This document shows, in pieces, positions 22,509 through 58,419 of a stretch of DNA of 58,419 bases. Source of the DNA: a virus; IMG/VR virus record IMGVR_UViG_3300045988_147113, one strand, 5' to 3'. The notes beneath the pieces were generated by a model. That model saw only the letters and a program-made list of their open reading frames with translations. It did not search any database and had not been told where the DNA came from. Each line of letters begins with the position of its first letter. Position 1 is the first letter of the stretch. A program made the translations under genes and the position numbers.

Positions 22509-22542
22509 TAGCTTCTCATTAAGGACCATGATTAATTCGCGA
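22509..22542 (-). promoter_or_regulatory. Conserved upstream motif, copy 8
   Basis: Minus strand reads TCGCGAATTAATCATGGTCCTTAATGAGAAGCTA. Confidence 0.55.
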
Positions 22543-22653
22543 ATACATCATCAAGCTCCTTGCCCAAAAATATAAACCATACGCATCATCGGACAAGAAG
22601 CAAAGCAGATGGCTTTGCTTCTATTGATCATTCCTGATTAGAGGAAATGGTGT

Positions 22654-22740
22654 TCAGTGTTCTTGCGTCAAAGCGACCGCATAGTACTCTCCAGCGAGAG
22701 CAGCGATTGCGATGGCAATGGCGGAAATTCCAGCGAACAT
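22654..22740 (-). CDS. 28-aa hydrophobic mini-protein
   Basis: MFAGISAIAIAIAALAGEYYAVALTQEH, with an AAAGGAG RBS and motif copy 9 upstream. Confidence 0.4.
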   Translation of the reverse strand: MFAGISAIAIAIAALAGEYYAVALTQEH

Positions 22741-22763
22741 AGTTTTCTCCTTTAATGATGGTA

Positions 22764-22796
22764 TGGTTCTCATTAAAGGACATGTTTCATTCGCGA
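22764..22796 (-). promoter_or_regulatory. Conserved upstream motif, copy 9
   Basis: Minus strand reads TCGCGAATGAAACATGTCCTTTAATGAGAACCA. A perfect 10-bp stem forms between 22749..22758 and 22770..22779 and includes the SD. Confidence 0.6.
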
Positions 22797-22807
22797 CTGC
22801 AAATATA

Positions 22808-22837
22808 AAGCCAAAGCCGCATGTGCGACTCTGGCTT
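22808..22837 (-). terminator. Conserved terminator hairpin
   Basis: AAGCCAAAGCCGCATGTGCGACTCTGGCTT, followed on the minus strand by TATATTT. Confidence 0.7.
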
Positions 22838-22842
22838 GATGA

Positions 22843-29667: not shown

Positions 29668-30597
29668 TCACACTCCTGTATACAACGTTTCGTTCTCGAT
29701 TGACATCCTGATATTATCAACACCCGAATCAGCGGAATACACGATGGTGTTCGCACCTTTATGCAACGTGATGAATCTCACATCTCGATTGATGGCGTTG
29801 AGAATGTTATACGAGATACCGTCTCGTATAATTTCAACTGATTTCTGCTTTGGAATGGTACAAATAACCAATTCGTCGCCGGATTTGATACCATCGGGGA
29901 TGATCTGTCGGACCTTATCCGTAAAGACGTCGATCTCCTGACCGGCCTCTTCATTGTAGATGCGAATATTATTCGCCGGGCCATCAAATGACATACGGAT
30001 GATCACGCCGACTTCGGATTCGCCATCATAGACGATGTTTTTCGAATGCATATTCTGAATGGCACCAAACCACAATGGTTTAGGTTCATTCACCGGATTA
30101 TTTGCCCAGTTGAATGGGAATTCGAATACCGGTTCGACATTGGAAAAAGAGGTGACCCTATTCAACTCGTTGTCGATCCTGAACCATGGGTCAGGACATT
30201 TGATGACGATGGATGACGACTCTTTTTCGGAAAATAACGAAACGTCATTCGATTCGACGATGCCGGTCGTAAGAACCGAACGAGTGTCGGCATGAAACAC
30301 CAAGGTGACTTCCTCTTTTTCGGGAAAATACTTGTATGTTCCATGCCGAAGGTCCTCAATGTTCTTACCCGATTCCGGATAATACGCGAGGTTGATGGTA
30401 ATCTCGCGTTCGTCCTTACGGGCACCATTGAAGATCACACCATCGGTGGTGACGGTATTGCTGGTTTGAAGCACGGCATCGACCGGTCCGAGACCGTCAA
30501 TGGCGACGACGTTATAGCCAGTCGCCATTGGGTTTCGGATGGGGAGATCGAGCGTGTCGCCACGAGCATTCGTAACAGTCATAGACTGAAACATCAT
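29668..30597 (-). CDS. Distal tail protein (Dit, siphovirus tail component)
   Basis: 309 aa, immediately downstream of the TMP with a 4-nt overlap. The N-terminus is typical of Dit. Confidence 0.65.
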   Translation of the reverse strand: MMFQSMTVTNARGDTLDLPIRNPMATGYNVVAIDGLGPVDAVLQTSNTVTTDGVIFNGARKDEREITINLAYYPESGKNIEDLRHGTYKYFPEKEEVTLVFHADTRSVLTTGIVESNDVSLFSEKESSSIVIKCPDPWFRIDNELNRVTSFSNVEPVFEFPFNWANNPVNEPKPLWFGAIQNMHSKNIVYDGESEVGVIIRMSFDGPANNIRIYNEEAGQEIDVFTDKVRQIIPDGIKSGDELVICTIPKQKSVEIIRDGISYNILNAINRDVRFITLHKGANTIVYSADSGVDNIRMSIENETLYTGV

Positions 30598-33500: not shown

Positions 33501-36500
33501 GACACCGGTAAGGGCTGTCATGAGCCCGATCATGGTGCCGCCAACCATCAGTGCTCCAATGACATCTTTCTTCATCTTTGCCAACGCCTTGAATATCAAG
33601 GCCATGACTCCAACGGAAAGAAGTAGCGAAGTAAGCACCGATGGATCGAGATTGCGTATCGAATCAGCGATGGCAGTGAATATGGCGGTCATGATATTGC
33701 CAAGAGCTGCTGTAATCTCCGGAGCATGACCGGCCACGGCGTTAAGCGCTGCAACCAGAATGGTTACAAGACTGTCGGTGATGGTGTCAGCGTGTGCGGC
33801 AACCACCTGCAATATCTTATCGATCATTGCTACGACGGTTTCGGCGACTGCCGGAACTTGCTGGACAAGCCACGCCATAAGATCCCTGAGAATCGATGAC
33901 AACGCGTCAAGAATCTGAGGCAAAGCAGCCACGATCACCTGAAGAACGCCGATCAACGCGGTCACCAAAGACTTCGCCAATGCCGGAATGAACTGAATCA
34001 GAGCGTCGAGCGCCGTCGCCAGAATGCCACCGGCAGCGGACCCGGTGGCTGCGAGAGCGGTGAGGCCAGCTCCGGCAAGTGCCATGCCGGCGCCGATGGC
34101 GAGGCAGGCGAGACCGAACACGCCCATGGCTTTGGCGACTGCCATAAGCTCTGCGGCCATCGGGCCGAGAACCGTGCCTGCGAATCCGAGTCCGAGAAGA
34201 GCCCCATAGAATCCAGTCAACCCAGTAATGAGCTGCTTAAGATCCATCGATCCCATAAGACGGATGGCGACGGCAAGGACCGTGATTCCAGCGGCGAATG
34301 CCATCATCCCTGCGGCTTGACCAGCCATGTTGTTGGGCATGAGATTCATGGCCGCAACCATACCCGCTAAAGCCAAACCGAAACCGCTGAGACCCTTGGC
34401 CAGACTATTCAGATCCATTCCGCCAAGGACCTTGATCGGAATGGTCAATGCAACAGCCGCCGTGGCAAATGACAATATAGCGGCTGAAGCCATCAGCATT
34501 CCGGCAAATTGGCCATTGAACTTGCTGAATAGTGCCATGGCTCCGGCGAAGGCGCCGAGGGTGATGACCAAAGCGCCGACGCCTTTGGCGAGGTCATCAA
34601 GATCCATGCCGCCGAGCACCTTGATCGGGACCGCAAGAAGCACCATGGCGGTCGCGAATGCCATGATGGCCGCTGCGGACTTCCCATAACTGCCGCCTAT
34701 ACCTTGGATATAACCGAGTCCGGCCATCGCGCCGGCGAGGACGCCCAAGCCAATCGCTATCGAACCGAGACCCTTAGCAAGATCATCAAGGTCCATAGTG
34801 CCAAGGATCTTGACCGCGGCGGCAAGAGGAATCAGAGCCGTCGCCATCAAGAGAATATTCTTGCCGACACCGGAATAATCAGCACCGAATTTCGCACCGG
34901 CGCCAAGACCGCCCATGGCTGTGGTCAGAAGAACGATGCCCAGTGCGACGGCATTCATGGAACGCGCAAGGTCATCGGGTTTGACGCTCGCAATCATGAG
35001 AATAGCTCCGGCGAGCACGGCCAAGGAGGAAGCCATCAATATGAATCCAGTGCCCAACTTAATCATGTTGGTGCCGACGGCATTCAGTCGTTCTGGCTTG
35101 GCCGTTCCCATCAAAGCGATTGATCCGCCGAGAGCGACGATCGCAGTGGCCATCGAACCAAATATCACTGCGATTTGCGCTGGATCCATGTCCTTGAGCA
35201 TATAGGCGGCTTCAGCCATAAGCTTCATGGAAGCGCCAAGCGCCACCATGGCCAAAGCGACCTTATTCAACGCATCGAAATCAAAGACCAGTTTTCCGGC
35301 TTTGTTGGTTACTTCTGCCAAAGCAGCAAGTCCAGTCATCATGCCGGTCATGACGGCAATGATGGCGGTCATGGCGCCAAGCGCCGGCATGATCTTTTCG
35401 GTCCTAATGGTCGACAATTGTGTTAAGGCGTCAGCAAGCAAGTTGATCGATGCGGCAATAGCGGCGATCGAAACGATCTTGAACGACTTGGCGAAATCCT
35501 TAAATGAATTACCGATATCATCGAGAGTCTTCTTCAGAGCGCCTTTGAAGGTCGACTTCTCAAGATCATCGCCAACTTCATTGAGTCCCTTGATGAACTT
35601 TCTAAGACCGACGAGAACGCCAGTCAATAAACCACCATTGATCAACGACAGAATCTGATCGAGGGTGATCTTACCGTTAAGATCGCCGAAGAATCGCTGA
35701 ATAGCTTCTCCGATTTCCCGAACACGATCGCCAATCCAATCAAATACCGGTTGAAGCGATTGCACTGCCGAAGCGATCTTATCCGAAACCTTCTGAGCGA
35801 TATCAGGAACGGTTCCGAATTTATCTTGGAATGCCTGTTGGAATTCGATACCGTATCGATCGACTTCTTTAGTCCAATCGGCCAAGGCGTTGCTGATAAT
35901 ACCGAGAATATCGGGGAATCCAGAAGAGCCCTTCTTTAAGCCATCAAACATGCCATCGAATACACCACTGATGGATTTGCCAATGGTTTCGACGACGGTT
36001 CCAAGCGACGAGAATGCAGATTCCCAGAATTTAATAAGATTGGTAACAACCTGAGATTGTCGAACGTATGCAGCAAATGCTCTGGCACCATCAATAACCG
36101 ATGAAGCGATATTAATGAATGCTCCAGAGATTTTTCCAGCAAAGCCAAGCAATACACCGAAGCCCTTGGCTACCAAACCAACAGCACCGAGAAGTGCCTT
36201 AAATGCTGTCGCCACAACCTTGGTAGTTGTTCCAATGACATTCAGCAACTGAGGCGAAGGCTTCAGCCCTTCGGTGAACTTGCGGAAAGCTTCAGTAAGT
36301 GCATAAATGGTATCACCACTCATGCTAGGCATGACTTCGTCCCAAGCCTTGCCCACCGCCTGAATGATCGTCTTCAGGGAATTCCAAACATTAGCTAGGC
36401 CCTGAATGACATTCTCTCGACCGGACATCCGCTGCATTTTGTTGGCGAAATCATCAGCGGAAATACTGCCATTTTGAAGACCTGCATTGAGTGCGTTTAG

Positions 36501-38288
36501 TTGGTTGATCTGCGCATTAGTGATGCCGAGATTCTGTTTCTTCGCATCGTCATAGCCGTTAACCTCTTGGGTCAAGCGGTTAACGCTATCTTTCAGAATA
36601 TTAGCGTTGACCCATCCTTTTCGCAACGACTTCTCAAATGAGCCGTATTCCTGAATGGCAGCACTTGCTCCGGCACCGGCTGCGTCTCCGGTCTCCTTTA
36701 ATATGTCATTAAATCGCTGGGTATCGACAATTCCTTGATTCACCAGCTGCTTGTATCCGGACGAGAACCCGGAAGACAGTAACTGGTTTCGAGCCTGCGA
36801 TTGGGCGTTGATGATGTTATTGATCTCGTCGGAAACACCGGTCCACAGATCCTTGGCTTCTTCGAAATCACCAAACAGGATTTGCATCGACTGAGCCCAA
36901 CCCGAACCGACTGCTTCCTTGGCGGTATCAATAAGCTGCGAGAATGTCTTGACCTTGGTCGCGGCATCCTGAGCGGTCTGGGCGAGCTGGACAAGCTGAC
37001 GAGCTTCTTCCTCGGTGTAGCCCTTGGAGACGAGCGACTGAACGGCCTTCTCGACATCAGTGATGTCCATGGCTAGGATGTTCAGCGACTGGGTCAGAAC
37101 ATCCGAAGTCAGCCAACCCTTCTGAAGTGAATCACGGAATGAACCCTCAGCAGCGATATACTTCTTAGCACCAGTTCCGAGTTTCTCAGAAGTCTGAACC
37201 AACAGATCCTGGAATACCTGACCACCCATACCGGCGTTGACAACAGAGTTCCAATCCATCAGCTTCACGGTTCCAGTAGCCAGAGCCTGGGATAGCTGAT
37301 ACATAGCGGTCGAGGCCTGAGCAGAACTTGAACCAGAAATGGCCGCGAGGTTGGCGATACCCTTGATCGAGTTCACCGAAGTTTGCAGATCAACACCGGC
37401 AGCTGTGAACGTACCGATGTTCCTGGTCATTTCAGTGAAATTATAAATAGTCTTATCAGCGTAGGTATTAAGCTGATTCAGAGCGGTATTGACCTGAGTG
37501 AGATTGGTTCCCTCCTTCTGGGTGTTGGCAAGAATGGTCTGAACCGAGTTCAGCTGAGTCTCATACTCTTCGAAACCGCTACGAATGCCATTGGTCAGAT
37601 TACTGGCAAGTTGCATGCCATACGTAGCAGCTTTGGCCGCAAGATTGCCCATGGCAACAACGCCGATGGCCTCAAGGGCCTTGAAATGCGGTTGAACCGC
37701 ATCAAGCTGCTCGCCGATAGGTGTGGCCTTGAAGGTATTCACACCGTCCATCAAGGAATCCCTCATGGAAGAGATTCCCATTTTGACGTTTTCAACGCCC
37801 TTCTGAATCGGGCCCAAATCGACACGATTGGCCGCATCATTGATACCATCAATCGCGTCAACGGTTTGTTGAATACCGACAGTATTGGTGCCGATCTTTC
37901 CGATTGCAGAGTTTGCTTCAGCGGCAGACTGCTGCACCTGATCGGACATCTTGTTCGCAGCGGATGCGACACCGGTTAAATTGACGTTATCGGAAGCGGC
38001 GCCAATCTGTTGAACACTCTTCTGAGCGCTCGAACCCATCTCAGCAAAGTTGTCAGCCGCTTTTGACGTGGCTTTGCTGACATCCCTTTGCATATCAGAT
38101 GCGGACTTGGAGACACTATCAAACTTGACTTTCTTGGCAGCTTTATCGAGCTCTTCAAACGACTTGGTGTCGCTGAAATTGAACGCTTTCTTGAGCTGCT
38201 CCAAAGCCTTGGTAACACGAGATACGCCTTGCTGCAAGGACGAATCGTCCATGGACAGCTTGACCACACGTTCGTCGATGTTAGCCAT
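30594..38288 (-). CDS. Tail tape-measure protein (2564 aa)
   Basis: A giant Ala/Gly/Leu-rich ORF with hydrophobic tandem repeats. It lies between the chaperone-like genes and Dit. Confidence 0.85.
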   Translation of the reverse strand: MANIDERVVKLSMDDSSLQQGVSRVTKALEQLKKAFNFSDTKSFEELDKAAKKVKFDSVSKSASDMQRDVSKATSKAADNFAEMGSSAQKSVQQIGAASDNVNLTGVASAANKMSDQVQQSAAEANSAIGKIGTNTVGIQQTVDAIDGINDAANRVDLGPIQKGVENVKMGISSMRDSLMDGVNTFKATPIGEQLDAVQPHFKALEAIGVVAMGNLAAKAATYGMQLASNLTNGIRSGFEEYETQLNSVQTILANTQKEGTNLTQVNTALNQLNTYADKTIYNFTEMTRNIGTFTAAGVDLQTSVNSIKGIANLAAISGSSSAQASTAMYQLSQALATGTVKLMDWNSVVNAGMGGQVFQDLLVQTSEKLGTGAKKYIAAEGSFRDSLQKGWLTSDVLTQSLNILAMDITDVEKAVQSLVSKGYTEEEARQLVQLAQTAQDAATKVKTFSQLIDTAKEAVGSGWAQSMQILFGDFEEAKDLWTGVSDEINNIINAQSQARNQLLSSGFSSGYKQLVNQGIVDTQRFNDILKETGDAAGAGASAAIQEYGSFEKSLRKGWVNANILKDSVNRLTQEVNGYDDAKKQNLGITNAQINQLNALNAGLQNGSISADDFANKMQRMSGRENVIQGLANVWNSLKTIIQAVGKAWDEVMPSMSGDTIYALTEAFRKFTEGLKPSPQLLNVIGTTTKVVATAFKALLGAVGLVAKGFGVLLGFAGKISGAFINIASSVIDGARAFAAYVRQSQVVTNLIKFWESAFSSLGTVVETIGKSISGVFDGMFDGLKKGSSGFPDILGIISNALADWTKEVDRYGIEFQQAFQDKFGTVPDIAQKVSDKIASAVQSLQPVFDWIGDRVREIGEAIQRFFGDLNGKITLDQILSLINGGLLTGVLVGLRKFIKGLNEVGDDLEKSTFKGALKKTLDDIGNSFKDFAKSFKIVSIAAIAASINLLADALTQLSTIRTEKIMPALGAMTAIIAVMTGMMTGLAALAEVTNKAGKLVFDFDALNKVALAMVALGASMKLMAEAAYMLKDMDPAQIAVIFGSMATAIVALGGSIALMGTAKPERLNAVGTNMIKLGTGFILMASSLAVLAGAILMIASVKPDDLARSMNAVALGIVLLTTAMGGLGAGAKFGADYSGVGKNILLMATALIPLAAAVKILGTMDLDDLAKGLGSIAIGLGVLAGAMAGLGYIQGIGGSYGKSAAAIMAFATAMVLLAVPIKVLGGMDLDDLAKGVGALVITLGAFAGAMALFSKFNGQFAGMLMASAAILSFATAAVALTIPIKVLGGMDLNSLAKGLSGFGLALAGMVAAMNLMPNNMAGQAAGMMAFAAGITVLAVAIRLMGSMDLKQLITGLTGFYGALLGLGFAGTVLGPMAAELMAVAKAMGVFGLACLAIGAGMALAGAGLTALAATGSAAGGILATALDALIQFIPALAKSLVTALIGVLQVIVAALPQILDALSSILRDLMAWLVQQVPAVAETVVAMIDKILQVVAAHADTITDSLVTILVAALNAVAGHAPEITAALGNIMTAIFTAIADSIRNLDPSVLTSLLLSVGVMALIFKALAKMKKDVIGALMVGGTMIGLMTALTGVFALMNLLNPVNTVASAVSLSTALIAMTGAFKIMETAKKNVLGVLAVGSAMAAILTELALVFGLMSAMNIDSVGTIAASLSGTILAISATAAIMSLINVGAAMSGVTALATFIAGLSAIVVAAGAIKQIPGVDWLVSEGAAFMAKIGAALGGFIGSIAGAITGAIMGAIGSSLPALATGLSNFMTNLKPFIAGAKEIDGSVATAVDTLANVVLKLTASNLLDAITSFITGGDGIENFGTKLVPLGQALKDYSAVVADLDSASIVSSAMAAQALTQVLNALPADDGLWQRIAGSKDWSTLSNGLVQMGMALKMYGITVTGLQPGPISASIEALNGLNGVLNAVPSDDGWWQKIAGGKDWSTLSTGLTGMGKALAGYGKAISGDGVNIEAIQKTVPAVKTLNNVLQNVPSDDGWWQKIVGGKNWGTLTEGLKGLGEALAGYGKAVSGDDVNVGAIQNTVPAVKSLTEILKSDFSQVGDFGPIKAAATQLGNGLAGYYNAVSEVAPDAITPTFAPLRSLINVVNGLGGMKMEGTSVGFITAATQLGVGLSNYTSHVAGLDFSNISASVSAVGSLSKVMGGMPAEYGGVTAFQQAVSTLAATSFMSLVRAIQNANSSISTGLSELNTALSTGTTTLTGSVNALNSAFSGINLSGNLSSQMSAAASAANSGANQIRSALNALATWLSGFASIWQASFTPIIGATRTGLNLVAQAISSYNGRFSQEGRSLANSLGSGMRSGIGNLSGIFNNALSAAVNGARAYRGSFESAGSYLAVGLAVGISRNSGVVSQAAADAVSNAVEAAKEAGKIKSPSRVMAKVGMWFDKGLENGIADNVGGVVRAAKTMMTSGIDVVDSSLSNIGKLDIPEFDVNPTITPVMDLSVVEGQAAYLNSMLSDTVGIGYSSKMIDKITAMPRQRDAGRAAESVEKTPQQIINNYDFTQNNTSPKALSRYDIYKQTRTQFRQFEQMNRNGGR

Positions 38289-46614: not shown

Positions 46615-48381
46615 TTACTCGAATGCATCTCGATTGTTCTTGAATGCTATAAAAGCATCCATCATTGCGGCAACGGCATCGATCTTATCTTCGCGACGAG
46701 CCTTGTATAGCTTTCGATTACCGTTGGTATCTTCCAATGTCATACAATTTGCCATGGTGAATGACATCAATGATTCATCAAACAGCAAACGACGATCTTC
46801 AGCGAGTTTCTTCAATTCACCAAGCGGAACGGATTCCGTCTTGGCTCCTTGAATAACTTTCTCAATAGCGAAAGCACCGTTGTCTTGAGTCCATCGTTCA
46901 ACGAATCGTTTGGCATTGTACGGATCATAACCGAATGCGCGAACATCATACTGGCAATCAATGATGTGTTGATCGAGATCATCGTACACCAGATCCATGT
47001 CAAGAGTGGTCCCCTCCATGATATGCAAAGAACCTTCTCGAATGAATTCCTCATACTTCTGACGAGCGGCTGTAGGAAGTTTTGTCAAGGTATACTCAGA
47101 AATATAATTTCGAGTCTTGATTCCGAACACTTCACCACGCAGCGGGAACATGAAGGTGAACGAACAGAAATCATCGCCTTGTGAAAGATCGGCACCGAGT
47201 GCGCATGGTAATCCCCAGAAGTCCTTCTTGGTGTGTGGCTTTGTTTCCTCATACGTAAAGAAGTAGGTGTAGCCTTCCATAGGGATACCGAAACGTTTAG
47301 CCAAAATATCATTACGATTGGCCGGTGCTTTCTCAGCACGTTCGACATCGTTCTGTAGCGTTTCATACGTTACGGTGATGCCAATGTTCGGATTTGATTT
47401 CATCCAAGTTGAAGGATCGGCGACCTCTTTGACATCATCCTGTCGATAGTAAAATATCGAGGTGTGAAAGTCCTGATACTCGCCTTTCAGAATACTCATA
47501 AGCTCAAGCTTGATGGTATCACCGACCGAATTACGGACGGTGCCTTCAGACGACGTCGCCACGATCAGCCAATCGGAACCGCCTCTATCGGATTGTTCTT
47601 TAGAAGCGCCTTGGGCCAATGCACCGACGACATCTTCGCGAGTATCGCCAGAAAGCCACTCGTCAACAGTAGCGATCTTAGGTCGAGCGCCCTGAAGTTT
47701 ATCGATGGACATCGGACGAACTTCGACAAGACTGTTCGTCGGAAAATATTGAATACCAGCCTTTGTCGATGCCAGCATAACCTGATTGCCAGTGACACCG
47801 CCACTTCGTCCTGGGAGTTTTCCCTGTGTCATCATCTTGATCGCCGGTCCTGGAGCTCGCTGAATAGCGGTGCGAATCGGCGACATAATCTCATCGGCAA
47901 GCTTCATGGTCGGTGCCACGACAATTCCGGTGGTGGTATTCGGATCGCACAGTAGCATGTATGCCTGCAAGCATGTCGCATACAATGACTTGGCATTACC
48001 ACGGGAAACGATCAAATACTGTCGATTGATCAAACGCTTTTTGATGCGTTTGTTGACGTAATGGCCTCCAGGACGATCAGCATTCGGAATATAGACTGAT
48101 CGGTCCACAAAATAATACCATCCGAAGATCTGCTCGCCCCATAGCTTGAACGAATCAAGCAAATGAAGTGGAGAGCCATCGGTCAACACAAGTTCGTGCT
48201 CGCAGAAATTCACCCAATGCTCGACAGCGGTATCATCATAGTAAATGCCAGGATTTGCGATCATGGCATCTATACGATTCATCTCCATCGAAATTTCACG
48301 ACATACCGGGATTTCACCCGATATCACTTTCTGACGAAACTTACCATAGTATCGCGGAGTCGCAGTGTTTGACAGTGTCAT
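46615..48381 (-). CDS. terL: Terminase large subunit
   Basis: 588 aa. It has a Walker A-like VSRGNAKS and a C-terminal nuclease region with FGYDPYNAKRF, typical of Terminase_1-type TerL. Confidence 0.8.
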   Translation of the reverse strand: MTLSNTATPRYYGKFRQKVISGEIPVCREISMEMNRIDAMIANPGIYYDDTAVEHWVNFCEHELVLTDGSPLHLLDSFKLWGEQIFGWYYFVDRSVYIPNADRPGGHYVNKRIKKRLINRQYLIVSRGNAKSLYATCLQAYMLLCDPNTTTGIVVAPTMKLADEIMSPIRTAIQRAPGPAIKMMTQGKLPGRSGGVTGNQVMLASTKAGIQYFPTNSLVEVRPMSIDKLQGARPKIATVDEWLSGDTREDVVGALAQGASKEQSDRGGSDWLIVATSSEGTVRNSVGDTIKLELMSILKGEYQDFHTSIFYYRQDDVKEVADPSTWMKSNPNIGITVTYETLQNDVERAEKAPANRNDILAKRFGIPMEGYTYFFTYEETKPHTKKDFWGLPCALGADLSQGDDFCSFTFMFPLRGEVFGIKTRNYISEYTLTKLPTAARQKYEEFIREGSLHIMEGTTLDMDLVYDDLDQHIIDCQYDVRAFGYDPYNAKRFVERWTQDNGAFAIEKVIQGAKTESVPLGELKKLAEDRRLLFDESLMSFTMANCMTLEDTNGNRKLYKARREDKIDAVAAMMDAFIAFKNNRDAFE

Positions 48382-51668: not shown

Positions 51669-52222
51669 GATCGAGCCTCGGTGACACCTATCTGGTTCTG
51701 GTAGTGGGAACCAAGTTCGACCGAACCATACATCCGATCAACTGTGGTATTGAGACGAATAAAGCACAACTGACCGATGAGCATTCCAGGCTTTAATAGA
51801 ATCGGGAATTGATTCTCGTTTTTGATTTCCAAGGTTATGGTTCCTTGAAAACCAGGATCGATGAACCCAGCCGTGACATGTGTCATCAGACCGATACGTC
51901 CCAACGACGATTTTCCTTCGAAATGACACGCCAGGTAATCTGGGATCGATACTGATTCGACGGTCGATCCGAGAACGAATTCGCCAGGGCGAAGAATATA
52001 TTCCATGTTGGCGACGTTGAGGGTATCCATCGATACGCCACGTAATTCTTTCGATAAACCGTTAATCAGATGCATCGCTGAATCGTTAGTCTTCACGAAT
52101 CGCTTGATTCGCGAATCGAGTCGAACATCATAACTGCACGGCTGCAATTGATCTTCATCGAATGGATCGATCAAACCGCGAATTGTGGCAAGGCCTCGAA
52201 TGGTTCTATCCGATAAAATCAT
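51665..52222 (-). CDS. dcd: dCTP deaminase (Dcd/dUTPase superfamily)
   Basis: MILSDRTI..., QPCSYDVRL and GKSSLGRIGLMTHVTAGFIDPGFQGTITLEIKN...GMLIGQLCF match Dcd signatures. Confidence 0.8.
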   Translation of the reverse strand: MILSDRTIRGLATIRGLIDPFDEDQLQPCSYDVRLDSRIKRFVKTNDSAMHLINGLSKELRGVSMDTLNVANMEYILRPGEFVLGSTVESVSIPDYLACHFEGKSSLGRIGLMTHVTAGFIDPGFQGTITLEIKNENQFPILLKPGMLIGQLCFIRLNTTVDRMYGSVELGSHYQNQIGVTEARS

Positions 52223-52560
52223 TCTTCCACCTCTTCTTCGCCGGATGGCATGATGTAGCCCTGCATGGCTTTGACTGCTTCTTGGAAAAGCTTGGTTTGA
52301 TCTTCAAAGCTATTGATGGCGTGGGTCTGCGCTTCGATCTTGCGATTCTCATACCGCATCTTCTCCATCTCGAGTTGGTTTCGAGATGAAGCTTGCTTCA
52401 AAAAGTGCACTGTCTCTGCCGAGGAAGCGGTCCCCTCTCTTAAACGACGTTCAACAAGATCCATAGCTAGTGCTTCGAGCTGTTGCTCACGTCCTTCCGG
52501 AGTTCTTTCTGGAATAAGTGGAGGGGAGATGGGTTCCTCGACCCGTTTACGACGAGCCAT
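52219..52560 (-). CDS. Small coiled-coil protein, possible terminase small subunit
   Basis: 113 aa from MARRKRVEEP (AAGGAG RBS). It is the first gene after the 650-bp non-coding block. No HTH recognised. Confidence 0.3.
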   Translation of the reverse strand: MARRKRVEEPISPPLIPERTPEGREQQLEALAMDLVERRLREGTASSAETVHFLKQASSRNQLEMEKMRYENRKIEAQTHAINSFEDQTKLFQEAVKAMQGYIMPSGEEEVEE

Positions 52561-52984
52561 ATGGACATCATCTCCTTTTGTTAGCGGATTCTCAACGCTA
52601 TCGCAGAGTTTTCTAGGGGTATTGGGGAGAATCATGCTCGATCCAAGGGAGTATTTCCACCGTTTCGCAGCGGTACATGTATCGGAAACTAATTCGGAGA
52701 GCACCCAACACCCCCGGAGAACCCTACGAGAGCTAAAAAGCAATTCCAAAATATCCCCCGCGGGGTATTTTCGAGTTGCCGGGCGATGCTATAGGGGGTG
52801 TGTTTTTCACGACCCCTCCCCCCGGTATCTCAAAAGAGATCCTAGGGTTGGGCATCTCAATAATTTTGAATTCGAACGAATCTAAATTCAAAATTATTCT
52901 TTGATATGAATTATAAACCATCCATAGATGGTTGCAGTCGAATGAAAGTTAATTCATTCGCATTTAATTGATTTCGATTTGCAA

Positions 52985-53212
52985 CGACAACGAATGATAA
53001 CAATCAGCATCGATGAACGATGTGATTCATATAGGCAAATGCTATTCGTTGCTCATATGAATCACATCATTCATCATTGTTGCTGTTGTTATTCATGCAT
53101 GTCGACAACGAATGATAACAATCAGCATCGATGAACGATGTGATTCATATAGGCAAATGCTATTCGTTGCTCATATGAATCACATCATTCATCATTGTTG
53201 CTGTTGTTATTC
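52985..53212. repeat. Two perfect 110-bp tandem repeats, each a long imperfect hairpin
   Basis: 52985..53094 is identical to 53103..53212 (118-bp period, ATGCATGT spacer). Within each unit, GATGAACGATGTGATTCATAT pairs with ATATGAATCACATCATTCATC. Confidence 0.9.
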
Positions 53213-53512
53213 GTTTGATGCAGCAGACGGAACTTCGCGCCATGAAGGACGCTTAGCTAATGTGTACACACCCAAAGGATCATGAGCAAAGAGATCTCGA
53301 ATCATTCGAGCATACTCGATGGCTTGATCCTCATCAGACATGTTGTCATAACCCATGAACATTTGGTTGACTAAACCACATGTATCATAGCCCATGGCAA
53401 TGTCTAGATTCATCCACCCTTCGAAATCAACGAATGGATTGATAGGGTTGTCCACTGTGGTTACCAATACATCATGTCTAAGGCATGCTTGCTCTAGCGG
53501 TGATAATGTCAT
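53207..53512 (-). CDS. Hypothetical protein
   Basis: 101-aa ORF downstream of the RNAP-like gene. Confidence 0.55.
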   Translation of the reverse strand: MTLSPLEQACLRHDVLVTTVDNPINPFVDFEGWMNLDIAMGYDTCGLVNQMFMGYDNMSDEDQAIEYARMIRDLFAHDPLGVYTLAKRPSWREVPSAASNE

Positions 53513-53518: not shown

Positions 53519-56320
53519 TCACTTCCCAAGATTCTCAGACAATGTTGAAGTCGAAATACCCAAAGCATCTGCGACTTCTGCATTGGTATAGCCAGCATTC
53601 ATGAGCGATTTCGCTCTAGCAATAGCCCAAGAAGGAAGCTTTTCTTTCTTTCTCGGAGTAGCTAGTTCTCGAACTCGATCAGGATCGGCGTATTGCAGTA
53701 TCTCACGAAGACGATTTGCTGAGATGGCCCTTGCTTGAATTGCCTCCCAGTCTCGATCCGTAAGATCCACCCTCTTGGATTGAATACCAACAATAGCTCT
53801 AGCTCGTTTGAGTTCCTTTTGTCCAGCTTTCTTCAGATCTTCCTTATCATAGTCAGGATGATCCTCTTTGATGGCACGAAGTCTCTCATTGGCTATGACC
53901 TGAGCCTTTCGTTCCAGGGGCTGGTTCTTCTTGGCTTCGTTGAGCTGGGCTACCATCTTCTTAACTTCGGGGGCGTATTGTTTTCTAGCCTGGGGGTCCA
54001 CTTTGAAAGGCTCTGCCTGGAGGTAGGCCTTTCGAGATTGGTTACCCAAATCTTTCATGCCGTTAGAGTAACGGGCATAAATAGATTCCATCAAAGTCCC
54101 AGAAGAAAGTTCCCTAGCATCCTTGGCCTCGGCGAGTTTCGTAGACTTCGTAATATTGGGGACTGTTTCATAACGAACAACCTCACCCTTCGAATTACGA
54201 ACCGCTCGATGATGAGATTCACCGGTAAGTTCATAACGTTTCTCACCAGTCTCAGGATCAATCGGGCCGCCATTCTTCATGGATCGGGGCTTGCGCTCCG
54301 GAAGACGAACTACACCCTTAGCCCTTGAAACAAGAGTAGAAGCGCCACCACTTTGGAACTTTTCCTTGAGGGCCTTAATGTTATTATCCGTCTCGGATTG
54401 TTTCCAATCAAGCTTATGCTTTTCGGAATCAATCACCACCATGGAATGACGAACCGCACGAACCAATTCATCAGGACGAGCGCCTTGGATTGTCATATCG
54501 GTAATCAAATTGGATACGATACCCATCTGACGCTGCTTCATCTCAGGAGAAATCAAACGCTTGTCATTGGGCTTGATGTCCTTTGGCAAGGCGTATGATT
54601 CCTTGGGATCAAATCCTTGAAGCCCCTTCAATGGAGCAGCGTTCTTGATCTGACCGCTTTTATTTGGAATTACCTGTACGGTATCTCCATCAAAATCGGC
54701 ACCCGATAGACGTTCGGCGACCTTGGAATTAATACCCACTGCATCCTTGGCATTGCCGATATATTTGAGACCTTCCTTGTTGCGATTGTTCACCACAAGT
54801 TCAGGCATCTCAAATCGACCAGCGTGCGGGTATCGAACCAGCATCACCTTCTCGCCATTTCGGTAGTTCGGAGCATAAATCTCACGATCGCTCAACGAAT
54901 TGATCGGAAGGATCACATGAGACTTCTGACGGGGAACAGCGGCAGCCTTCAAAGAAACGGCAGCAGAATCGCATTCGTCGGCAAACTCTTGAAGAAGCTT
55001 TTGCTTGACGACTGGATTGGTCAACGATTTGATTTCTTTAAGATTCAATCGAGAACGATCCAGAGCAATGCCAAGTTGCTGAGAAGCAAACGAAGGTTCC
55101 TGCTTGGAAAGCATCTGAGATGGTAGATTCTTAGACCAACCATCCCAATCACCTTCGGTATTCAAAATATTCAAAGACGATTGTTTTCTCTTACCGGTTT
55201 TTGGATCCACATAAGTAGGTTGCAAACGAACGGCTGCCTTGAATGGGTTCTCCGTATCGATGACTTCTGTTCCGTTGGCAGACTTGATAGTCTGCATCTT
55301 CTTCAGAACATCCATCTTCGGAGTGCCCTTGTGTTTGTTGGTACAGAAAGCCACATCAACACCAGGTGGGAACGACCGAGGATCACCAACGAGTGCCATG
55401 CCTTTGAGGTAGTGGGTACCGTCAACGGCAATTCGAACCTGAGCGTAACGTTTACCATCCGGCAACTGAAGATCAGGAGCCTTGGGATTGATCAGCATCA
55501 CACCGTCTCGTTCGACGCCTTTGAAACCAGCAAACTTGTCTTCAGCATAAACGATCTTAACTCGCTTACTGTCGATTGAGACTGGAGGCTTCAGTGCTCC
55601 GGAAAATCCTGCTGGAATGTCATCGAGGTTCTTCGCCAAAGAAGCAATACGCTCACGATGAGCGTACAGACCTTCCGGGCCTGAAACCTTGACACCGGGA
55701 GCGGTCAACAGCTTGAGGGTCGTCTTCTGGCCAGGACCAGTGCCGAGCTGATTCTCATACATGTAGTGGACTTCGTAACCATTATCGACCGCCATCTGCA
55801 CTGCGACCTTGAGCTTATCGGCAGAAGTTCCCAGATATAATTCTGAGGATTTACCGATATCAAGACCACCGTTCTTCGGAACCGAAGCCATAAGCTTTTC
55901 TGAGATGTCGGTAGCGATGTCCTTACGAACTTCACGACCATCTTTGAGCCAGCCACGGACTGTCGATTCAGAACGTCCAAGCTCTTTGCCGATGGCTGTG
56001 GCACCCCAACCTTGCTTCTGAAGATTCAGCGCTCGGTTGCGAGTATAGTTCTCGGCTTCATTCCATGCCATGGAATATCGTGCTCGGTATTCGGTTGTAG
56101 TCATGCCAAGCGCTCGTGCGATCTCTGTTGAATTGCTGATCCCTTGCTCTTTGAGCCGAGCCACTTGACCCAGCAAGCCATTGGCTCTGGTCAAGGAATC
56201 CTCATCGCCAGAACCCCATTTGTACCGTCCGGAATGCGGAGTGGCTCCTTGATGTGGGATACCGTAATGCTCGAAGTCATACAACGACTCGTCATCACCG
56301 GAATATGACTCTTCAGCCAT
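53519..56320 (-). CDS. Putative single-subunit two-barrel (YonO-like) DNA-dependent RNA polymerase with terminal HTH modules
   Basis: 933 aa.
- VMLVRYPHAGRFEM...GINSKVAERLSGADFDGDTVQVI (ADFDGD at 54683..54700) mirrors the beta-prime DPBB motifs R.P.lH and NADFDGD.
- The upstream DKFAGFKGV resembles the beta DPBB motif GDKmAGRHGnKGV.
- HTH-like segments lie at both termini. Confidence 0.6.
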   Translation of the reverse strand: MAEESYSGDDESLYDFEHYGIPHQGATPHSGRYKWGSGDEDSLTRANGLLGQVARLKEQGISNSTEIARALGMTTTEYRARYSMAWNEAENYTRNRALNLQKQGWGATAIGKELGRSESTVRGWLKDGREVRKDIATDISEKLMASVPKNGGLDIGKSSELYLGTSADKLKVAVQMAVDNGYEVHYMYENQLGTGPGQKTTLKLLTAPGVKVSGPEGLYAHRERIASLAKNLDDIPAGFSGALKPPVSIDSKRVKIVYAEDKFAGFKGVERDGVMLINPKAPDLQLPDGKRYAQVRIAVDGTHYLKGMALVGDPRSFPPGVDVAFCTNKHKGTPKMDVLKKMQTIKSANGTEVIDTENPFKAAVRLQPTYVDPKTGKRKQSSLNILNTEGDWDGWSKNLPSQMLSKQEPSFASQQLGIALDRSRLNLKEIKSLTNPVVKQKLLQEFADECDSAAVSLKAAAVPRQKSHVILPINSLSDREIYAPNYRNGEKVMLVRYPHAGRFEMPELVVNNRNKEGLKYIGNAKDAVGINSKVAERLSGADFDGDTVQVIPNKSGQIKNAAPLKGLQGFDPKESYALPKDIKPNDKRLISPEMKQRQMGIVSNLITDMTIQGARPDELVRAVRHSMVVIDSEKHKLDWKQSETDNNIKALKEKFQSGGASTLVSRAKGVVRLPERKPRSMKNGGPIDPETGEKRYELTGESHHRAVRNSKGEVVRYETVPNITKSTKLAEAKDARELSSGTLMESIYARYSNGMKDLGNQSRKAYLQAEPFKVDPQARKQYAPEVKKMVAQLNEAKKNQPLERKAQVIANERLRAIKEDHPDYDKEDLKKAGQKELKRARAIVGIQSKRVDLTDRDWEAIQARAISANRLREILQYADPDRVRELATPRKKEKLPSWAIARAKSLMNAGYTNAEVADALGISTSTLSENLGK

Positions 56321-56333: not shown

Positions 56334-56927
56334 CTAGAAGATCAATTTATTAGCTTTCGCTTCGGCGCGAAGTTCACGAATCATCTTATCATCATGAACG
56401 ATAAGATTCATAACATCCTTGATGGTTTCCGGATCAGTAAACTCTTCAATGCGAACTTCATCATTCTGATAGAGTCGGCATTCAAAATTGATATCATCTG
56501 GTTTGATGTTGTACTCGAGACAGAACAGAGCGCAATACACATGCAGCTGTCCGAACTCGAGCACATCCTTCTGACCGGTCTTGAGATCAAATACTCGAAG
56601 AAGTTTCTTCTTGGGATCGAATCCGATAAGATCGGCAGTCCCGAAACAATACTCGCTGTAATAGAGCACCACTTCCGGACTCATGTTGTATCCGAGACCA
56701 TCATTGATGAACTCGTTGATGGTCTCATGGTTGCGCGGCATCTTCCGACCCATCCTATTCGCAAACTCGGCGAAGGCGTGAAGCTGTGTGCCACGTTCTT
56801 TCATGAGATTGGAATAGAAGATATCCTTGAAGTGCTCATCGTCGTAGTTGAGCCAGACATGATGACTGGCACTCAAATATGCATGCTTACCTTGAAGGTC
56901 AGTGTGCTGATTGAACGTGAATGTCAT
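56334..56927 (-). CDS. PD-(D/E)XK nuclease (RecB/Cas4-like exonuclease fold)
   Basis: 197 aa from the ATG at 56927. GTADLIGFDPKKKLLRVFDLKTGQ fits the D...(D/E).K motif. Confidence 0.5.
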   Translation of the reverse strand: MTFTFNQHTDLQGKHAYLSASHHVWLNYDDEHFKDIFYSNLMKERGTQLHAFAEFANRMGRKMPRNHETINEFINDGLGYNMSPEVVLYYSEYCFGTADLIGFDPKKKLLRVFDLKTGQKDVLEFGQLHVYCALFCLEYNIKPDDINFECRLYQNDEVRIEEFTDPETIKDVMNLIVHDDKMIRELRAEAKANKLIF

Positions 56928-56958
56928 GATGACCCCTAAAATGAAAAGCCGTGATTCC

Positions 56959-57258
56959 CTAGGCTTTGGATAGATATCGCTTGACTTGGTCCACCACATC
57001 GTCTTCATTCGAAGGATCGACAAACGAAGCAAAACCGCCATCGTCGTTGATCTTCTGAACGAAGTGATCCTGATTTGGTCGATGGGATGCGGTGGCTGAG
57101 CGTTTGACTTCCAGCGAAGCAAATCGGCCATGTGCGAGGATCAAGAGATCCGGGATGCCTTGCACTTGGTTCGCATCGGCTTTCATGACAATGGATCCTG
57201 GAATCTCGGTCCTCAATCGCTTGACCAGTTTACGCTGGAAGTCTCGCTCTAAAACCAT
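56959..57258 (-). CDS. VRR-NUC domain nuclease
   Basis: 99 aa. GIPDLLILAHGRFASLEVKR is the VRR-NUC PD...(E)VK core. Confidence 0.65.
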   Translation of the reverse strand: MVLERDFQRKLVKRLRTEIPGSIVMKADANQVQGIPDLLILAHGRFASLEVKRSATASHRPNQDHFVQKINDDGGFASFVDPSNEDDVVDQVKRYLSKA

Positions 57259-57368
57259 GAAAAAACCTCCAACCGTAAAATACGGGAGATACCTGTAGTT
57301 ATATGTATATTCTATCCATTATGGGAAATGTACGAGACGATGTTTGTGCACAAATGTGCACAAATGAT

Positions 57369-58207: not shown

Positions 58208-58241
58208 GACGGTTCCTTTCTGCAAAAAAGTGGTTTTCAAA

Positions 58242-58261
58242 TGTGTAACGTTTGTGTGACA
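58242..58261. repeat. Third forward copy of the TGTGTAACGTTTGTGTGAC motif
   Basis: Shares GTTTTCAAATGTGTAACGTTTGTGTGACA with the copy at 113..140. It sits about 35 nt upstream of the first early gene start (58207). On the circular map this makes 3 forward and 3 reverse copies. Confidence 0.85.
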
Positions 58262-58300
58262 TAGGTTATACTTTATATCTTTTCATATTATAATGATTAT

Positions 58301-58419
58301 ATTTTTTTTTTCACCGGAATAGGAAGTATGTCACAGAAATATTACACACAGAAAAATACTCTTAAAACCCCAAAAACGTTGAAATTCCAACGTTTTCAGG
58401 CCCTAAAAGACGTTTTCAA
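58301..58419. repeat. Terminal direct repeat, copy 2
   Basis: Exact copy of 1..119. Confidence 0.9.

What the first reader, a model, noticed from the sequence alone, without database searches (positions are those of the whole stretch)
52985..53212. Two perfect 110-bp tandem repeats, each folding into a long hairpin, immediately upstream of the packaging module
The sequence 52985..53094 is identical to 53103..53212, separated by ATGCATGT. Each unit is an imperfect inverted repeat: the arms ...GATGAACGATGTGATTCATAT and ATATGAATCACATCATTCATC... flank a 22-nt loop. Outer arms rich in (C)GAATGA/TCATTC(G) words lie further out. A related 8-bp hairpin (CGAATGAA/TTCATTCG) sits at 52939..52960.

Perfect identity of two 110-bp units in a phage genome implies recent duplication or strong selection. 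The location matters too: between the early block and the first packaging or late gene, within 650 bp free of ORFs. This fits a pac/cos-type terminase recognition site, a replication origin, or a pair of structured non-coding RNAs.
Basis: seen in the sequence. Interest (0 to 1): 0.68.

Follow-up and report, generated by a model that had tools for sequence, protein, structure and literature searches.

The report
Duplicated stem-loop beside phage cos site
The two perfect 110-bp repeats are a recent, private duplication of one conserved long stem-loop within a fast-drifting block of hairpins next to the true cos (genome-end) site of a common human-gut phage; the block is not cos and most likely acts as structured RNA at the end of the phage RNA polymerase operon.

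Summary
In detail: 52985-53094 equals 53103-53212, the spacer is ATGCATGT, and each unit is a long hairpin (about -47 kcal/mol, z about -7.8).

The window is a circularly assembled phage genome of about 58.3 kb. The repeats lie between the last gene of the rightmost operon (YonO-like RNA polymerase, then a 101-aa gene) and cos.

Cos is a separate element at about 52745-52832:
- It matches the mapped 9-base 3' cohesive ends of Arthrobacter phage Mudcat.
- Many metagenome contigs stop exactly there.
- It is 98% conserved among relatives.

The repeats belong to a ~370-390-nt block of 5-7 stem-loops. Block sequence drifts at the neutral rate with many indels, but pairing is kept.

The core hairpin (B) occurs twice only in this window, once in most of about 35 relatives, and not at all in two. 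Distant relatives have 6 to 200 nt at this position, usually with unrelated hairpins, and the gene-sense strand is the more stable one.

The block is not a canonical terminator, a dispersed mobile element, or an Rfam family.

Best reading (confidence about 0.4): a transcribed 3'-UTR stem-loop block for RNA stability, processing or insulation. The tandem repeat is a recent conversion and duplication event.

The parts
53103..53212 (-). Repeat unit 2, the first one transcribed on the gene strand. It is a long stem-loop: hairpin B core plus outer arms. It contains the stop codon TAA (53207-53209) of the 101-aa gene. It occupies the position where relatives carry an unrelated hairpin A.
53095..53102 (-). 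8-nt spacer (ATGCATGT on +, ACATGCAT on -). In relative L005 the same sequence precedes the single B unit.
52985..53094 (-). Repeat unit 1, the ancestral-position copy of the hairpin B super-stem. The inner branch (hairpin C of relatives) is deleted. Core 21-bp stem: 53012-53032 with 53055-53075. Apical part: 53033-53054.
52939..52960 (-). Hairpin D (CGAATGAA / TTCATTCG, 6-nt loop). Conserved in nearly all clade members.
52916..52933 (-). Hairpin E (AACCATC..GATGGTT on the minus strand). Conserved in the clade and also in the 85%-identity relative L165 and the short-block variant L170.
52859..52898 (-). Hairpin F. An AT-rich perfect palindrome with 14-nt arms and a 12-nt loop. Conserved, with G.U-type changes on the minus strand.
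52745..52832 (-). The cos site proper. On the minus strand it comprises a G-box (+ 52813-52825), an A-rich spacer, a C-box (+ 52794-52798), GCAT, the predicted 9-10-nt 3' overhang CGCCCGGCA(A) (+ 52776/7-52785), an A-rich tract, and the CCCCGCGGGG palindrome (+ 52755-52765).
   Evidence: Homology to the Mudcat ends (9-base 3' ends, PMC5513430) and to the HotFries end. Contigs end at ...CTATGGCAT. 98% identity among relatives. Conserved across the supercluster.
53207..53512 (-). 101-aa gene (phrog_4303), the last gene of the rightmost operon. The homologous small gene directly precedes cos in Mudcat (gp95), BitterVaud1 and HotFries (gp57).
53519..56320 (-). 933-aa YonO/QDE-1-like single-subunit RNA polymerase with HTH domains at both ends.
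   Evidence: 10.1101/842583
52219..52560 (-). 113-aa protein (phrog_4259), the first gene after cos. Function unknown. The model has a basic disordered N-terminus and two helices, with no match by structure or sequence.

Best explanation
The two 110-bp repeats are two copies of one long stem-loop, called hairpin B here. It sits in a ~370-390-nt, AT-rich (31% GC) block of 5-7 stem-loops. The block fills the gap between the stop codon of the last gene of the rightmost operon (RNA polymerase, then the 101-aa gene) and the cos site.

Shown:
- cos is a separate, conserved element about 150-200 bp further along the gene strand.
- The block's sequence drifts at about the neutral rate with frequent indels, duplications and conversions, while base-pairing is retained.
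- The window's perfect tandem is a private, recent rearrangement. An L005-like ancestor first lost inner hairpin C. The shortened B unit then replaced hairpin A, using 4-9-nt microhomologies (GAATA and TCGTTGTCG).

Inferred:
- The block is transcribed as the 3' untranslated tail of the RNA polymerase operon and works as RNA.
- The stack of long stems (21-45 bp) would block 3'-to-5' exonucleases, or provide RNase III-type processing sites.
- It would also insulate or punctuate transcription that otherwise runs unterminated across cos into the late genes of circular or concatemeric DNA.
- On this view function depends on having stable hairpins, not on their sequence or exact number. That explains why copy number can be 0, 1 or 2.
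For: Position:
- The block starts at the stop codon of the last gene of the operon, and the stop codon sits in the 5' arm of the first hairpin in the window and its relatives.
- No ORF is conserved within it.

Structure is conserved while sequence is not:
- Block identity in aligned columns is 0.818, against 0.816 at fourfold sites of the adjacent RNAP gene. A further 17% of columns are indels. cos is 0.977 identical.
- Block MFE is -112 to -142 kcal/mol at 30-33% GC.
- In hairpin B, 99% of cells are paired and 4 pairs show compensatory double changes.
- 31 of 42 B stem columns are invariant, against 168 of 384 fourfold sites (p = 0.0003).
- L165 (85% identity in the small protein) has unrelated hairpins of the same total size.

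Strand asymmetry points to the gene-sense single strand:
- Single-sided changes in B are G.U in 16 cells against 3 others. The same tendency is seen in D, F' and F.
- The sense strand has the lower MFE in 21 of 25 clade members.
- In 12 unrelated spacer lineages of the supercluster, 9 are structured (z < -2) and the sense strand is more stable in 11 of 12 (Wilcoxon p = 0.012). In coding-sequence controls the figure is 55%.

Comparative evidence:
- Relatives carry 6 to 200 nt at this position, mostly with hairpins. One (L035) is a textbook terminator. The isolate HotFries has one or two hairpins before its mapped end.
- Other operon ends in this genome have canonical terminators, but none lies between this operon and cos. 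Transcripts should therefore extend through the block.
Against: - There is no transcript data, so transcription of the block is inferred from gene orientation only.
- The window's own units show no strand asymmetry (-47 against -48 kcal/mol).
- The window genome's background already favours the sense strand: 72% of control windows, mean -4.5 kcal/mol.
- The symmetric mismatch count is only a trend: G.T 20 against A.C 11 distinct contexts, p = 0.15.
- The hairpins are AT-rich and lack U-tracts, unlike this phage's own terminators. Classical termination is therefore unlikely.
- BitterVaud1, Mudcat and several metagenomic relatives manage with 6-27 nt here, and L170 lacks hairpin B. Any function is accessory.
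- Concerted evolution of palindrome arms by template switching could mimic compensatory change without selection.
Confidence: 0.4

Rival explanations
1. No function. The block is tolerated filler in the only slack spot between the last gene and cos. It is made and remade by replication slippage, palindrome-templated repair and recombination between co-infecting strains. The 110-bp tandem is just the latest such accident.
For: - The substitution rate is neutral, with 17% indel columns.
- Short words vary in copy number: CAATCATTGT x2-4, and a 22-nt duplication in L005.
- Hairpin B occurs 0, 1 or 2 times in nature.
- The block is absent from BitterVaud1 and Mudcat.
- The window's arrangement is private. 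None of its three junctions is found in 166 loci, and the B-B joint is not found in IMG/VR.
Against: - The hairpin B stem is more conserved than fourfold sites (p = 0.0003), and pairing is 99% retained.
- Block length stays at 369-394 nt in nearly all members despite the turnover.
- Independent lineages repeatedly hold structured spacers with a sense-strand bias.
- From general knowledge: long palindromes are normally unstable and lost unless selected.
Confidence: 0.22
2. A DNA-level accessory of cos. The palindromes would be bound as duplex or cruciform by terminase, HNH or a host bending protein. They would help recognition or cutting of the terminal cos as the motor approaches, like cosQ or the repeats around 936-type cos sites.
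For: - The block lies within 30-400 bp of cos, on the side expected to be packaged last.
- Hairpins E and F, next to cos, are the best conserved in sequence.
- In L032 and L090 the hairpin abuts the G-box.
- Cos regions of other phages carry inverted and direct repeats (PMC6105707).
Against: - The same cos box works with 6-27 nt of spacer in Mudcat, BitterVaud1, L036, L074, L037 and L078.
- The block is unconstrained in sequence while cos is 98% identical.
- Block words are not repeated elsewhere.
- A duplex or cruciform site predicts no strand asymmetry, yet asymmetry is seen across lineages.
Confidence: 0.15
3. A replication signal: either an origin of replication or a single-strand priming signal. 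It would use AT-rich DNA, inverted repeats and short direct repeats.
For: - The block is 31% GC against about 48% for the genome.
- It holds many inverted repeats and short tandem words.
- A single-strand hairpin signal would be strand-specific, as observed.
Against: - The block is absent from relatives with homologous primase-polymerase and helicase genes.
- It has no iterons of fixed sequence and is not adjacent to a replication initiator.
- A stronger candidate exists at window 1-316: six or more copies of a 20-mer in both orientations beside the helicase block.
- L170 lacks most of the block.
Confidence: 0.07
4. An arms-race module. The block would be a rapidly changing structured RNA or DNA decoy at the genome end that enters the cell first, for example an anti-defence RNA. 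Copy-number expansion, such as the window's duplication, would be adaptive, by analogy with pseudo-ToxI expansion in phage PhiTE.
For: - Diversity is extreme between otherwise 94-98% identical genomes that co-occur in the same samples.
- A conserved core hairpin sits within variable surroundings.
- The duplication is private.
- The phage is very prevalent in human gut metagenomes.
Against: - The substitution rate is not above neutral.
- No associated defence or anti-defence gene was identified.
- There is no Rfam match.
- Nothing here links the hairpins to any host system.
Confidence: 0.08

Closest known systems
Cohesive-end (cos) regions of siphophages: lambda cosQ-cosN-cosB, and 936-type lactococcal cos with flanking inverted and direct repeats and R1-R4 sites (PMC6105707)
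   Same: - A non-coding region lies between the end of the early/middle genes and the first late genes.
- It contains the nick site plus inverted repeats.
- A true cos with a 3' overhang lies in the same intergenic region, at 52745-52832.
   Different: - The tandem hairpins are not part of the conserved cos.
- They are missing or replaced in relatives that share the cos box.
- They drift neutrally, whereas terminase-binding repeats are sequence-conserved.
RNase III processing or stabilising hairpins of phage polycistronic mRNAs: T7 R-sites and the lambda sib retroregulator (from general knowledge)
   Same: - Long stems (20 bp or more) are imperfectly paired.
- They lie in untranslated stretches between co-oriented gene blocks.
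- Structure matters, not sequence.
- As with lambda sib, the element lies just beyond a gene and next to a site where genome topology changes (att there, cos here).
   Different: - No cleavage or transcript data exist here.
- There are 5-7 hairpins in a row rather than one.
- They are AT-rich.
- The number varies between strains.
Intrinsic (Rho-independent) terminators
   Same: A hairpin lies immediately after the last stop codon of an operon. The relative L035 has a textbook terminator at the homologous position.
   Different: - The window's hairpins have no U-tract.
- Their stems are 21-45 bp long and AT-rich.
- This phage's own terminators elsewhere have GC-rich stems of 8-14 bp followed by T-runs.
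REP/BIME-type extragenic palindromes (from general knowledge)
   Same: - They are imperfect palindromes, often tandem.
- They lie in 3' untranslated regions.
- They stabilise upstream mRNA.
- They are prone to copy-number change.
   Different: REP elements are dispersed in many copies per genome. Hairpin B occurs only at this one locus, in this one phage clade.
Phage T5 injection-stop region (from general knowledge)
   Same: It is a non-coding cluster of direct repeats, inverted repeats and palindromes near the genome end that enters the cell first.
   Different: - T5 has long terminal repeats and two-step DNA transfer.
- Nothing here indicates stepwise ejection.
- The identity of the entering end is itself inferred from lambda-type packaging polarity.

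Membership tests
cos site of the YonO-RNAP actinophage/Firmicutes-phage supercluster | Sequence homologous to experimentally mapped cohesive ends (G-box, A-rich spacer, C-box, GCATCGCC.. overhang) | tested here: not met
   The repeats at 52985-53212 share nothing with the Mudcat or HotFries ends. The homologous sequence is at 52745-52832.
cos site of the YonO-RNAP actinophage/Firmicutes-phage supercluster | Present and conserved in all relatives that use the same terminase and cos | tested here: not met
   - Absent in BitterVaud1, Mudcat, L036, L074 and others.
- Copy number among close relatives is 0 to 2.
- Identity is 68% overall (82% in aligned columns), against 98% for cos.
cos site of the YonO-RNAP actinophage/Firmicutes-phage supercluster | Physical genome or contig ends map to it | tested here: not met
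   Contigs end at ...CTATGG(CAT), about 200 nt beyond the repeats and not within them. A few contigs (L011, L014, L158) break inside hairpin F, but none breaks in the repeats.
Intrinsic (Rho-independent) terminator | GC-rich stem of about 5-15 bp followed by a U-tract on the transcribed strand | tested here: not met
   - The scan finds only trivial 5-bp sub-stems in the units.
- No T-run follows the hairpins.
- This genome's other terminators are canonical.
Dispersed palindromic elements (REP/BIME, MITE) | Multiple copies at different loci in the phage or host genomes | tested here: not met
   - There is no other copy in the window.
- IMG/VR hits are the same locus of the same clade.
- The 38 bacterial-genome hits are single-arm matches in unrelated taxa, consistent with chance matches.
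Replication origin (iteron type) | Several copies of a fixed-sequence iteron plus an AT-rich region, next to or inside a replication initiator gene, and conserved with the replication module | tested here: not met
   - AT-richness is met.
- There is no fixed iteron, and short words vary in number and sequence.
- The block is not next to a replication gene.
- It is absent in relatives with the same replication genes.
Described RNA families (Rfam 15) | Match at or above the family's gathering score | tested here: not met
   There are no matches at gathering thresholds. The only sub-threshold hits are to miRNA-precursor hairpins at 15-34 bits, against cut-offs of 65-160.
RNase III-type processing or stabilising hairpins in phage mRNA | Stem of about two helical turns or more in a transcribed untranslated region | tested here: met
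   There are 21-bp core stems extended to about 29-45 bp. They lie directly after a stop codon on the gene strand. Transcription itself is inferred.
RNase III-type processing or stabilising hairpins in phage mRNA | Staggered cleavage in the stem, or mRNA 3' ends at the hairpin, dependent on RNase III | not testable with these tools
   This needs RNA end-mapping in infected cells.
N4-type hairpin promoters for phage RNA polymerase | Short (5-7 bp) stem with a 3-nt loop, extruded on the template strand upstream of transcribed genes, and recurring at several promoters | tested here: not met
   - The stems are 21-45 bp long.
- The structure bias is on the non-template (sense) strand.
- The sequence occurs once in the genome.
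- A different recurrent promoter-like motif exists elsewhere.

The most novel reading that the evidence does not exclude
The hairpin block is a functional, fast-turnover structured-RNA (or folded-DNA) module at the genome end that leaves the capsid first. It is selected for hairpin content and remodelled in an arms race with host nucleases or defence systems. On this reading the window's perfect duplication of the conserved core hairpin is an adaptive copy-number expansion rather than an accident.
Probability: 0.1. Interest if true: 0.7.

Novelty: new variant of a known kind. Interest (0 to 1): 0.4.

Why it matters
- It separates the real cos site of a very prevalent, uncultured human-gut phage clade from a neighbouring repeat that looks like a packaging signal but is not. 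The predicted 3' overhang gives a concrete target for end-mapping. It also warns against reading conspicuous repeats near packaging genes as pac or cos sites.
- It documents a structure-conserved, sequence-free stem-loop block at the boundary between the phage RNA polymerase operon and the late genes. Comparable structured spacers occur across the whole YonO-type RNAP phage supercluster. How these polymerases start, stop and hand over to late transcription is unknown, and this boundary is an obvious place to look.
- Natural variants with 0, 1 and 2 copies of the core hairpin provide a ready-made allelic series.

Tried and rejected
- Similar DNA in 50,697 phage records: none.
- Rfam at gathering and permissive thresholds: only non-specific miRNA-like hairpin hits.
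- tRNA or tmRNA genes: none.
- Mobile-element idea: there is no second locus in the window, in IMG/VR or in 185,579 bacterial and archaeal genomes beyond chance single-arm hits.
- Assembly artefact:
  - The window has a 119-bp terminal overlap from circular assembly.
  - The 110-bp repeat is shorter than that overlap.
  - The three private junctions share only 4-9 nt with the relatives' sequences. That is too short for a de Bruijn graph mis-join.
  - The repeat is therefore taken as real, although reads were not available.
- Protein-binding-word idea (GAATGA and similar): the words are not enriched outside the block.
- Promoter idea:
  - The sigma-70 scan is at or below chance.
  - The genome's recurrent bipartite motif CGCGAATGAA-N7-CTTTAATGAGAAC has only a half-match, in hairpin D.
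- Hidden small gene: the mechanical ORFs across the region (52733-52921 minus strand and 52313-52885 plus strand) are broken by indels in relatives.
- 113-aa neighbour as small terminase: no Pfam, NCBIfam or PDB sequence hit, and no fold match for a pLDDT-80 model. This stays unresolved.
- Symmetric mismatch count within the clade (G.T against A.C): only a trend, p = 0.15.
- Two tool calls failed on length limits, one on a search-term format, and one script timed out.

Full report
**1. Observation**

The repeat is exactly as described. 52985-53094 and 53103-53212 are identical over 110 nt and are separated by ATGCATGT.

Each unit is a long imperfect palindrome. It has a 21-bp core stem (53012-53032 with 53055-53075, and 53130-53150 with 53173-53193), a 22-nt apical part and further outer arms. 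As RNA a unit folds at -47 kcal/mol on the minus strand and -48 on the plus strand (z -7.8 and -7.9). As DNA the z-scores are -6.5 and -7.0. The small hairpin at 52939-52960 is also present. A 110-nt perfect repeat cannot be chance.

**2. Context**

The first and last 119 nt of the window are identical. The window is therefore a circularly closed assembly of a genome of about 58.3 kb. Nearly all genes are on the minus strand.

Reading the minus strand, the gene order is as follows:
- Cas4-like exonuclease (56334-57131)
- a 933-aa YonO/QDE-1-like single-subunit RNA polymerase with HTH domains at both ends (53519-56320; phrog_4291, weak PF05183)
- a 101-aa gene (53207-53512)
- the repeats
- about 430 nt of further non-coding DNA
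- a 113-aa gene (52219-52560)
- dCTP deaminase, HNH endonuclease, connector, TerL (46615-48381), portal, and the structural, tail and replication genes

This polymerase is the signature gene of a supercluster that spans Streptomyces, Arthrobacter, Gordonia and Curtobacterium phages and some Lactococcus and Faecalibacterium phages (10.1101/842583). The closest isolate is Bifidobacterium phage BitterVaud1, at 50.7% identity. [quoted passage not shown]

**3. Where cos really is**

In Arthrobacter phage Mudcat the RNAP gene and a homologous small gene (gp95) are the last genes before the right physical end. Mudcat has 9-base 3' cohesive ends (PMC5513430 Table 1).
- Mudcat's right end reads ...GGGGGAGGGGGTCTCGCAAAAGGTACCCCCCCTCTGCATCGCCGGCCT.
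- Its left end starts CCCCAAAAAATCCCCGGGGGAATATTT.
- The window's minus strand at 52832 to 52745 reads GATACCGGGGGGAGGGGTCGTGAAAAACACACCCCCTATAGCATCGCCCGGCAACTCGAAAATACCCCGCGGGGGATATTTTGG.
- BitterVaud1 has the same box directly after its small gene. Streptomyces phage HotFries ends at ...GCATCGCCGCCCT.

Among close relatives, contigs L007, L016, L017 and L018 end at ...CCCCCTATGGCAT. L015, L009, L020, L153, L159, L160 and L163 end within three bases of it. This is the signature of a physical end.

The box recurs across the supercluster and is 97.7% identical among close relatives.

The cos site is therefore at about 52745-52832, with a predicted 3' overhang CGCCCGGCA(A) at + 52776/7-52785. 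It lies about 150-200 bp from the repeats and is a different sequence.

**4. What the repeats belong to**

I retrieved about 35 distinct close relatives from IMG/VR, JGI/ENA metagenomes and ENA assemblies. All named sources are human gut metagenomes. The exact 113-aa protein is indexed in about 1,950 blocks of the collection, so the clade is very common.

In all of these relatives the space between the small gene's stop codon and the cos-proximal sequence GAGATGCCCAA is a block, usually 369-394 nt long and 30-33% GC. It folds into 5-7 stem-loops with a total MFE of -112 to -142 kcal/mol:
- hairpin A
- a 'B super-stem', whose outer arms enclose the conserved hairpin B and a variable hairpin C
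- hairpins D, E, F' and the AT-rich palindrome F

The window's 110-nt unit is the B super-stem.

Compared with the nearest relative L005, the window differs by two events:
- the inner C branch was deleted between short CATC/TTCAT repeats;
- the shortened unit then replaced hairpin A, with joints in GAATA and TCGTTGTCG.

This changed the stop codon from TAG to TAA. None of the three resulting junctions occurs in any of 166 fetched loci, and the B-B joint is absent from IMG/VR.

Hairpin B is present twice only in the window and once in most relatives. It is absent in L170, which has a short ~210-nt block and an identical 113-aa protein, and in L165. Short words also vary in copy number, for example CAATCATTGT x2-4.

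The perfect identity therefore reflects a recent, private duplication and conversion.

**5. Evolutionary regime**

Mean pairwise identities are:
- 94% in the RNAP 3' half
- 97% in the small gene
- 98% in cos plus 300 nt
- 68% in the block

The block figure is not super-neutral. In aligned columns the block is 81.8% identical, the same as fourfold-degenerate sites of the RNAP gene (81.6%). Another 17% of columns are indels.

Against this drift, pairing is retained:
- In hairpin B, 99% of 315 cells pair, and 4 of 21 pairs show double compensatory changes, for example GTG:CAC to AAG:CTT. Slid-register controls collapse to 18-49% paired.
- The 'loop' also keeps pairing through G.U intermediates.
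- B stem columns are invariant more often than fourfold sites: 31 of 42 against 168 of 384, p = 0.0003.
- Hairpins D, F' and F are conserved.
- L165, at 85% protein identity, has unrelated sequences that again form a hairpin array (>=379 nt to the contig end, -113 to -123 kcal/mol).

So the structure is constrained and the sequence is largely free.

**6. RNA or DNA?**

Within the clade:
- Single-sided changes in B are G.U on the gene-sense (window minus) strand in 16 cells, against 3 others. D, F' and F behave likewise.
- A strand-symmetric count, with folding that forbids G.U, gives G.T 20 against A.C 11 distinct contexts. This is only a trend (p = 0.15).
- The sense strand is more stable in 21 of 25 members, by a mean of -9.2 kcal/mol. 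These are not independent, and the window genome's background is already 72% and -4.5 kcal/mol.

A better test uses independent lineages. Across the supercluster the spacer between the small gene and the G-box ranges from 6 nt to about 200 nt. Among 12 mutually dissimilar spacers of 50 nt or more:
- 9 are structured (z < -2);
- the sense strand is the more stable one in 11 of 12 (mean -5.4 kcal/mol, Wilcoxon p = 0.012);
- in coding windows of the same loci the figures are 55% and -0.5 kcal/mol.

This favours function as a single strand of gene polarity, most simply the transcript. The window's own units are strand-symmetric.

**7. What the block is not**

- Canonical terminator: it is not one. 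The hairpins are AT-rich, 21-45 bp long and lack U-tracts. The same genome uses GC-stem plus T-tract terminators at about 6130-6175, 16810-16850, 21458-21504, 21749-21789, three more in 22210-22842, and 57250-57290. No canonical terminator lies between the RNAP operon and cos. Transcription should therefore run into the block and, on circular or concatemeric DNA, across cos into the late genes.
- Dispersed element: it is not one.
- Rfam family: there is no match.
- The genome's recurrent promoter-like motif: it has only a half-match.
- Origin of replication: this is unlikely, because the block is absent in relatives with the same replication genes. A better iteron-like region lies at window 1-316.

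**8. Mechanism**

Shown:
- the location, anatomy and copy-number variation of the block
- neutral sequence drift with retained pairing
- the separateness of cos
- the private origin of the tandem

Inferred:
- The block is the 3' untranslated tail of the RNAP operon.
- It acts as RNA, as an exonuclease barrier or RNase III-type processing site, and as an insulator or punctuation between the RNAP operon and the late genes beyond cos.
- Function depends on hairpin content rather than on sequence or number.

I put this at about 0.4. The rivals are:
- tolerated palindromic filler (0.22)
- DNA-level cos accessory (0.15)
- anti-defence or arms-race module (0.08)
- replication signal (0.07)

The polarity argument, that the block is packaged last and ejected first, rests on analogy with lambda-type packaging and was not tested.

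**9. Comparison and novelty**

The block works most like the RNase III and stabiliser hairpins of phage polycistronic mRNAs, and like REP-type 3' palindromes. It fails the defining features of a cos site, an intrinsic terminator, a dispersed palindromic element, an iteron origin and an N4-type hairpin promoter (see the membership table).

It is best filed as a new variant of a known kind: a strain-variable, multi-hairpin 3'-UTR block abutting cos.

**10. Verdict**

Interest is moderate (0.4), for three reasons:
- a clean cos assignment for a highly prevalent gut phage
- a structure-only conserved element at an interesting transcriptional boundary
- a natural 0/1/2-copy allelic series

No evidence points to a new mechanism.

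Noticed in passing
window 1-119 and 58301-58419: The first and last 119 nt are identical, so the window is a circularly closed assembly (overlap length typical of k = 119). The true genome length is about 58,300 bp. Assembly runs through cos, whereas many sister contigs of about 57-58 kb end at cos.
   Followed up: yes
window 58241-58300 and 1-316: This is a repeat-rich intergenic region between the helicase-side genes and the exonuclease/RNAP block. The 20-mer TGTGTAACGTTTGTGTGACA occurs about 3 times directly (121-181, plus one copy before the contig junction). Three inverted copies lie at 217-316. It is one of the most structured spots in the genome (z -4.6). It is a candidate origin or operator array.
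   Followed up: partly
window 7128, 18730, 19589, 21717, 22229, 22512, 22766, 23428 (minus strand): A recurrent bipartite motif, CGCGAATGAA-N7-C(C/T)TTAATGAGAAC, lies about 15-25 nt upstream of the ribosome-binding sites of small ORFs. It often comes directly after a canonical terminator, giving terminator-promoter cassettes. It is a candidate phage-specific promoter, possibly for the YonO-like RNAP.
   Followed up: partly
window 8592-13129 (minus strand): The primase-polymerase gene (phrog_4210) is split. A 993-aa N-terminal part (10148-13129) and a 362-aa C-terminal part (8592-9680) are separated by a free-standing HNH endonuclease gene (9677-10144).
   Followed up: no
window 53519-56320 (minus strand): The 933-aa single-subunit RNA polymerase of the YonO/QDE-1 two-barrel type has HTH domains at both termini. 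It is often annotated only as 'HTH DNA-binding protein' in isolate genomes. Its promoters and terminators are unknown.
   Followed up: partly
L170 (ENA ERZ28645744 scaffold_116), locus 513-1000: This natural variant has an identical 113-aa protein but a block of only about 210 nt. It has one A-like hairpin whose stem contains the stop codon, no hairpin B, and hairpins E, F' and F retained. The cos box carries a few substitutions.
   Followed up: partly
window 53207-53209 and the homologous positions in L004-L020 and L167-L176: The stop codon of the 101-aa gene always lies in the 5' arm of the first hairpin of the block. It is TAG in hairpin A of relatives and TAA in the duplicated B unit of the window. 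A terminating ribosome would therefore sit on the base of that stem.
   Followed up: no
(collection index): The exact 113-aa protein sequence is listed in about 1,950 blocks of the public assembly collection. All named sources of close relatives are human gut metagenomes. This uncultured phage clade, probably with an actinobacterial host, is therefore very prevalent.
   Followed up: no
window 32114-32480: A 192-bp tandem repeat (1.9 copies, 77% matches) lies inside the 2,564-aa tape-measure-like gene (30594-38288).
   Followed up: no
window 52833-52860 (minus strand: GAGATGCCCAACCCTAGGATCTCTTTTGAGATACC): This stretch between hairpin F and the G-box is nearly invariant in the close clade (substituted in L170 and L171). 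It contains GAGAT / ATCTC / GAGAT, which can form two alternative 5-bp hairpins around a TTTT run. It may be part of cos, or a weak terminator.
   Followed up: no
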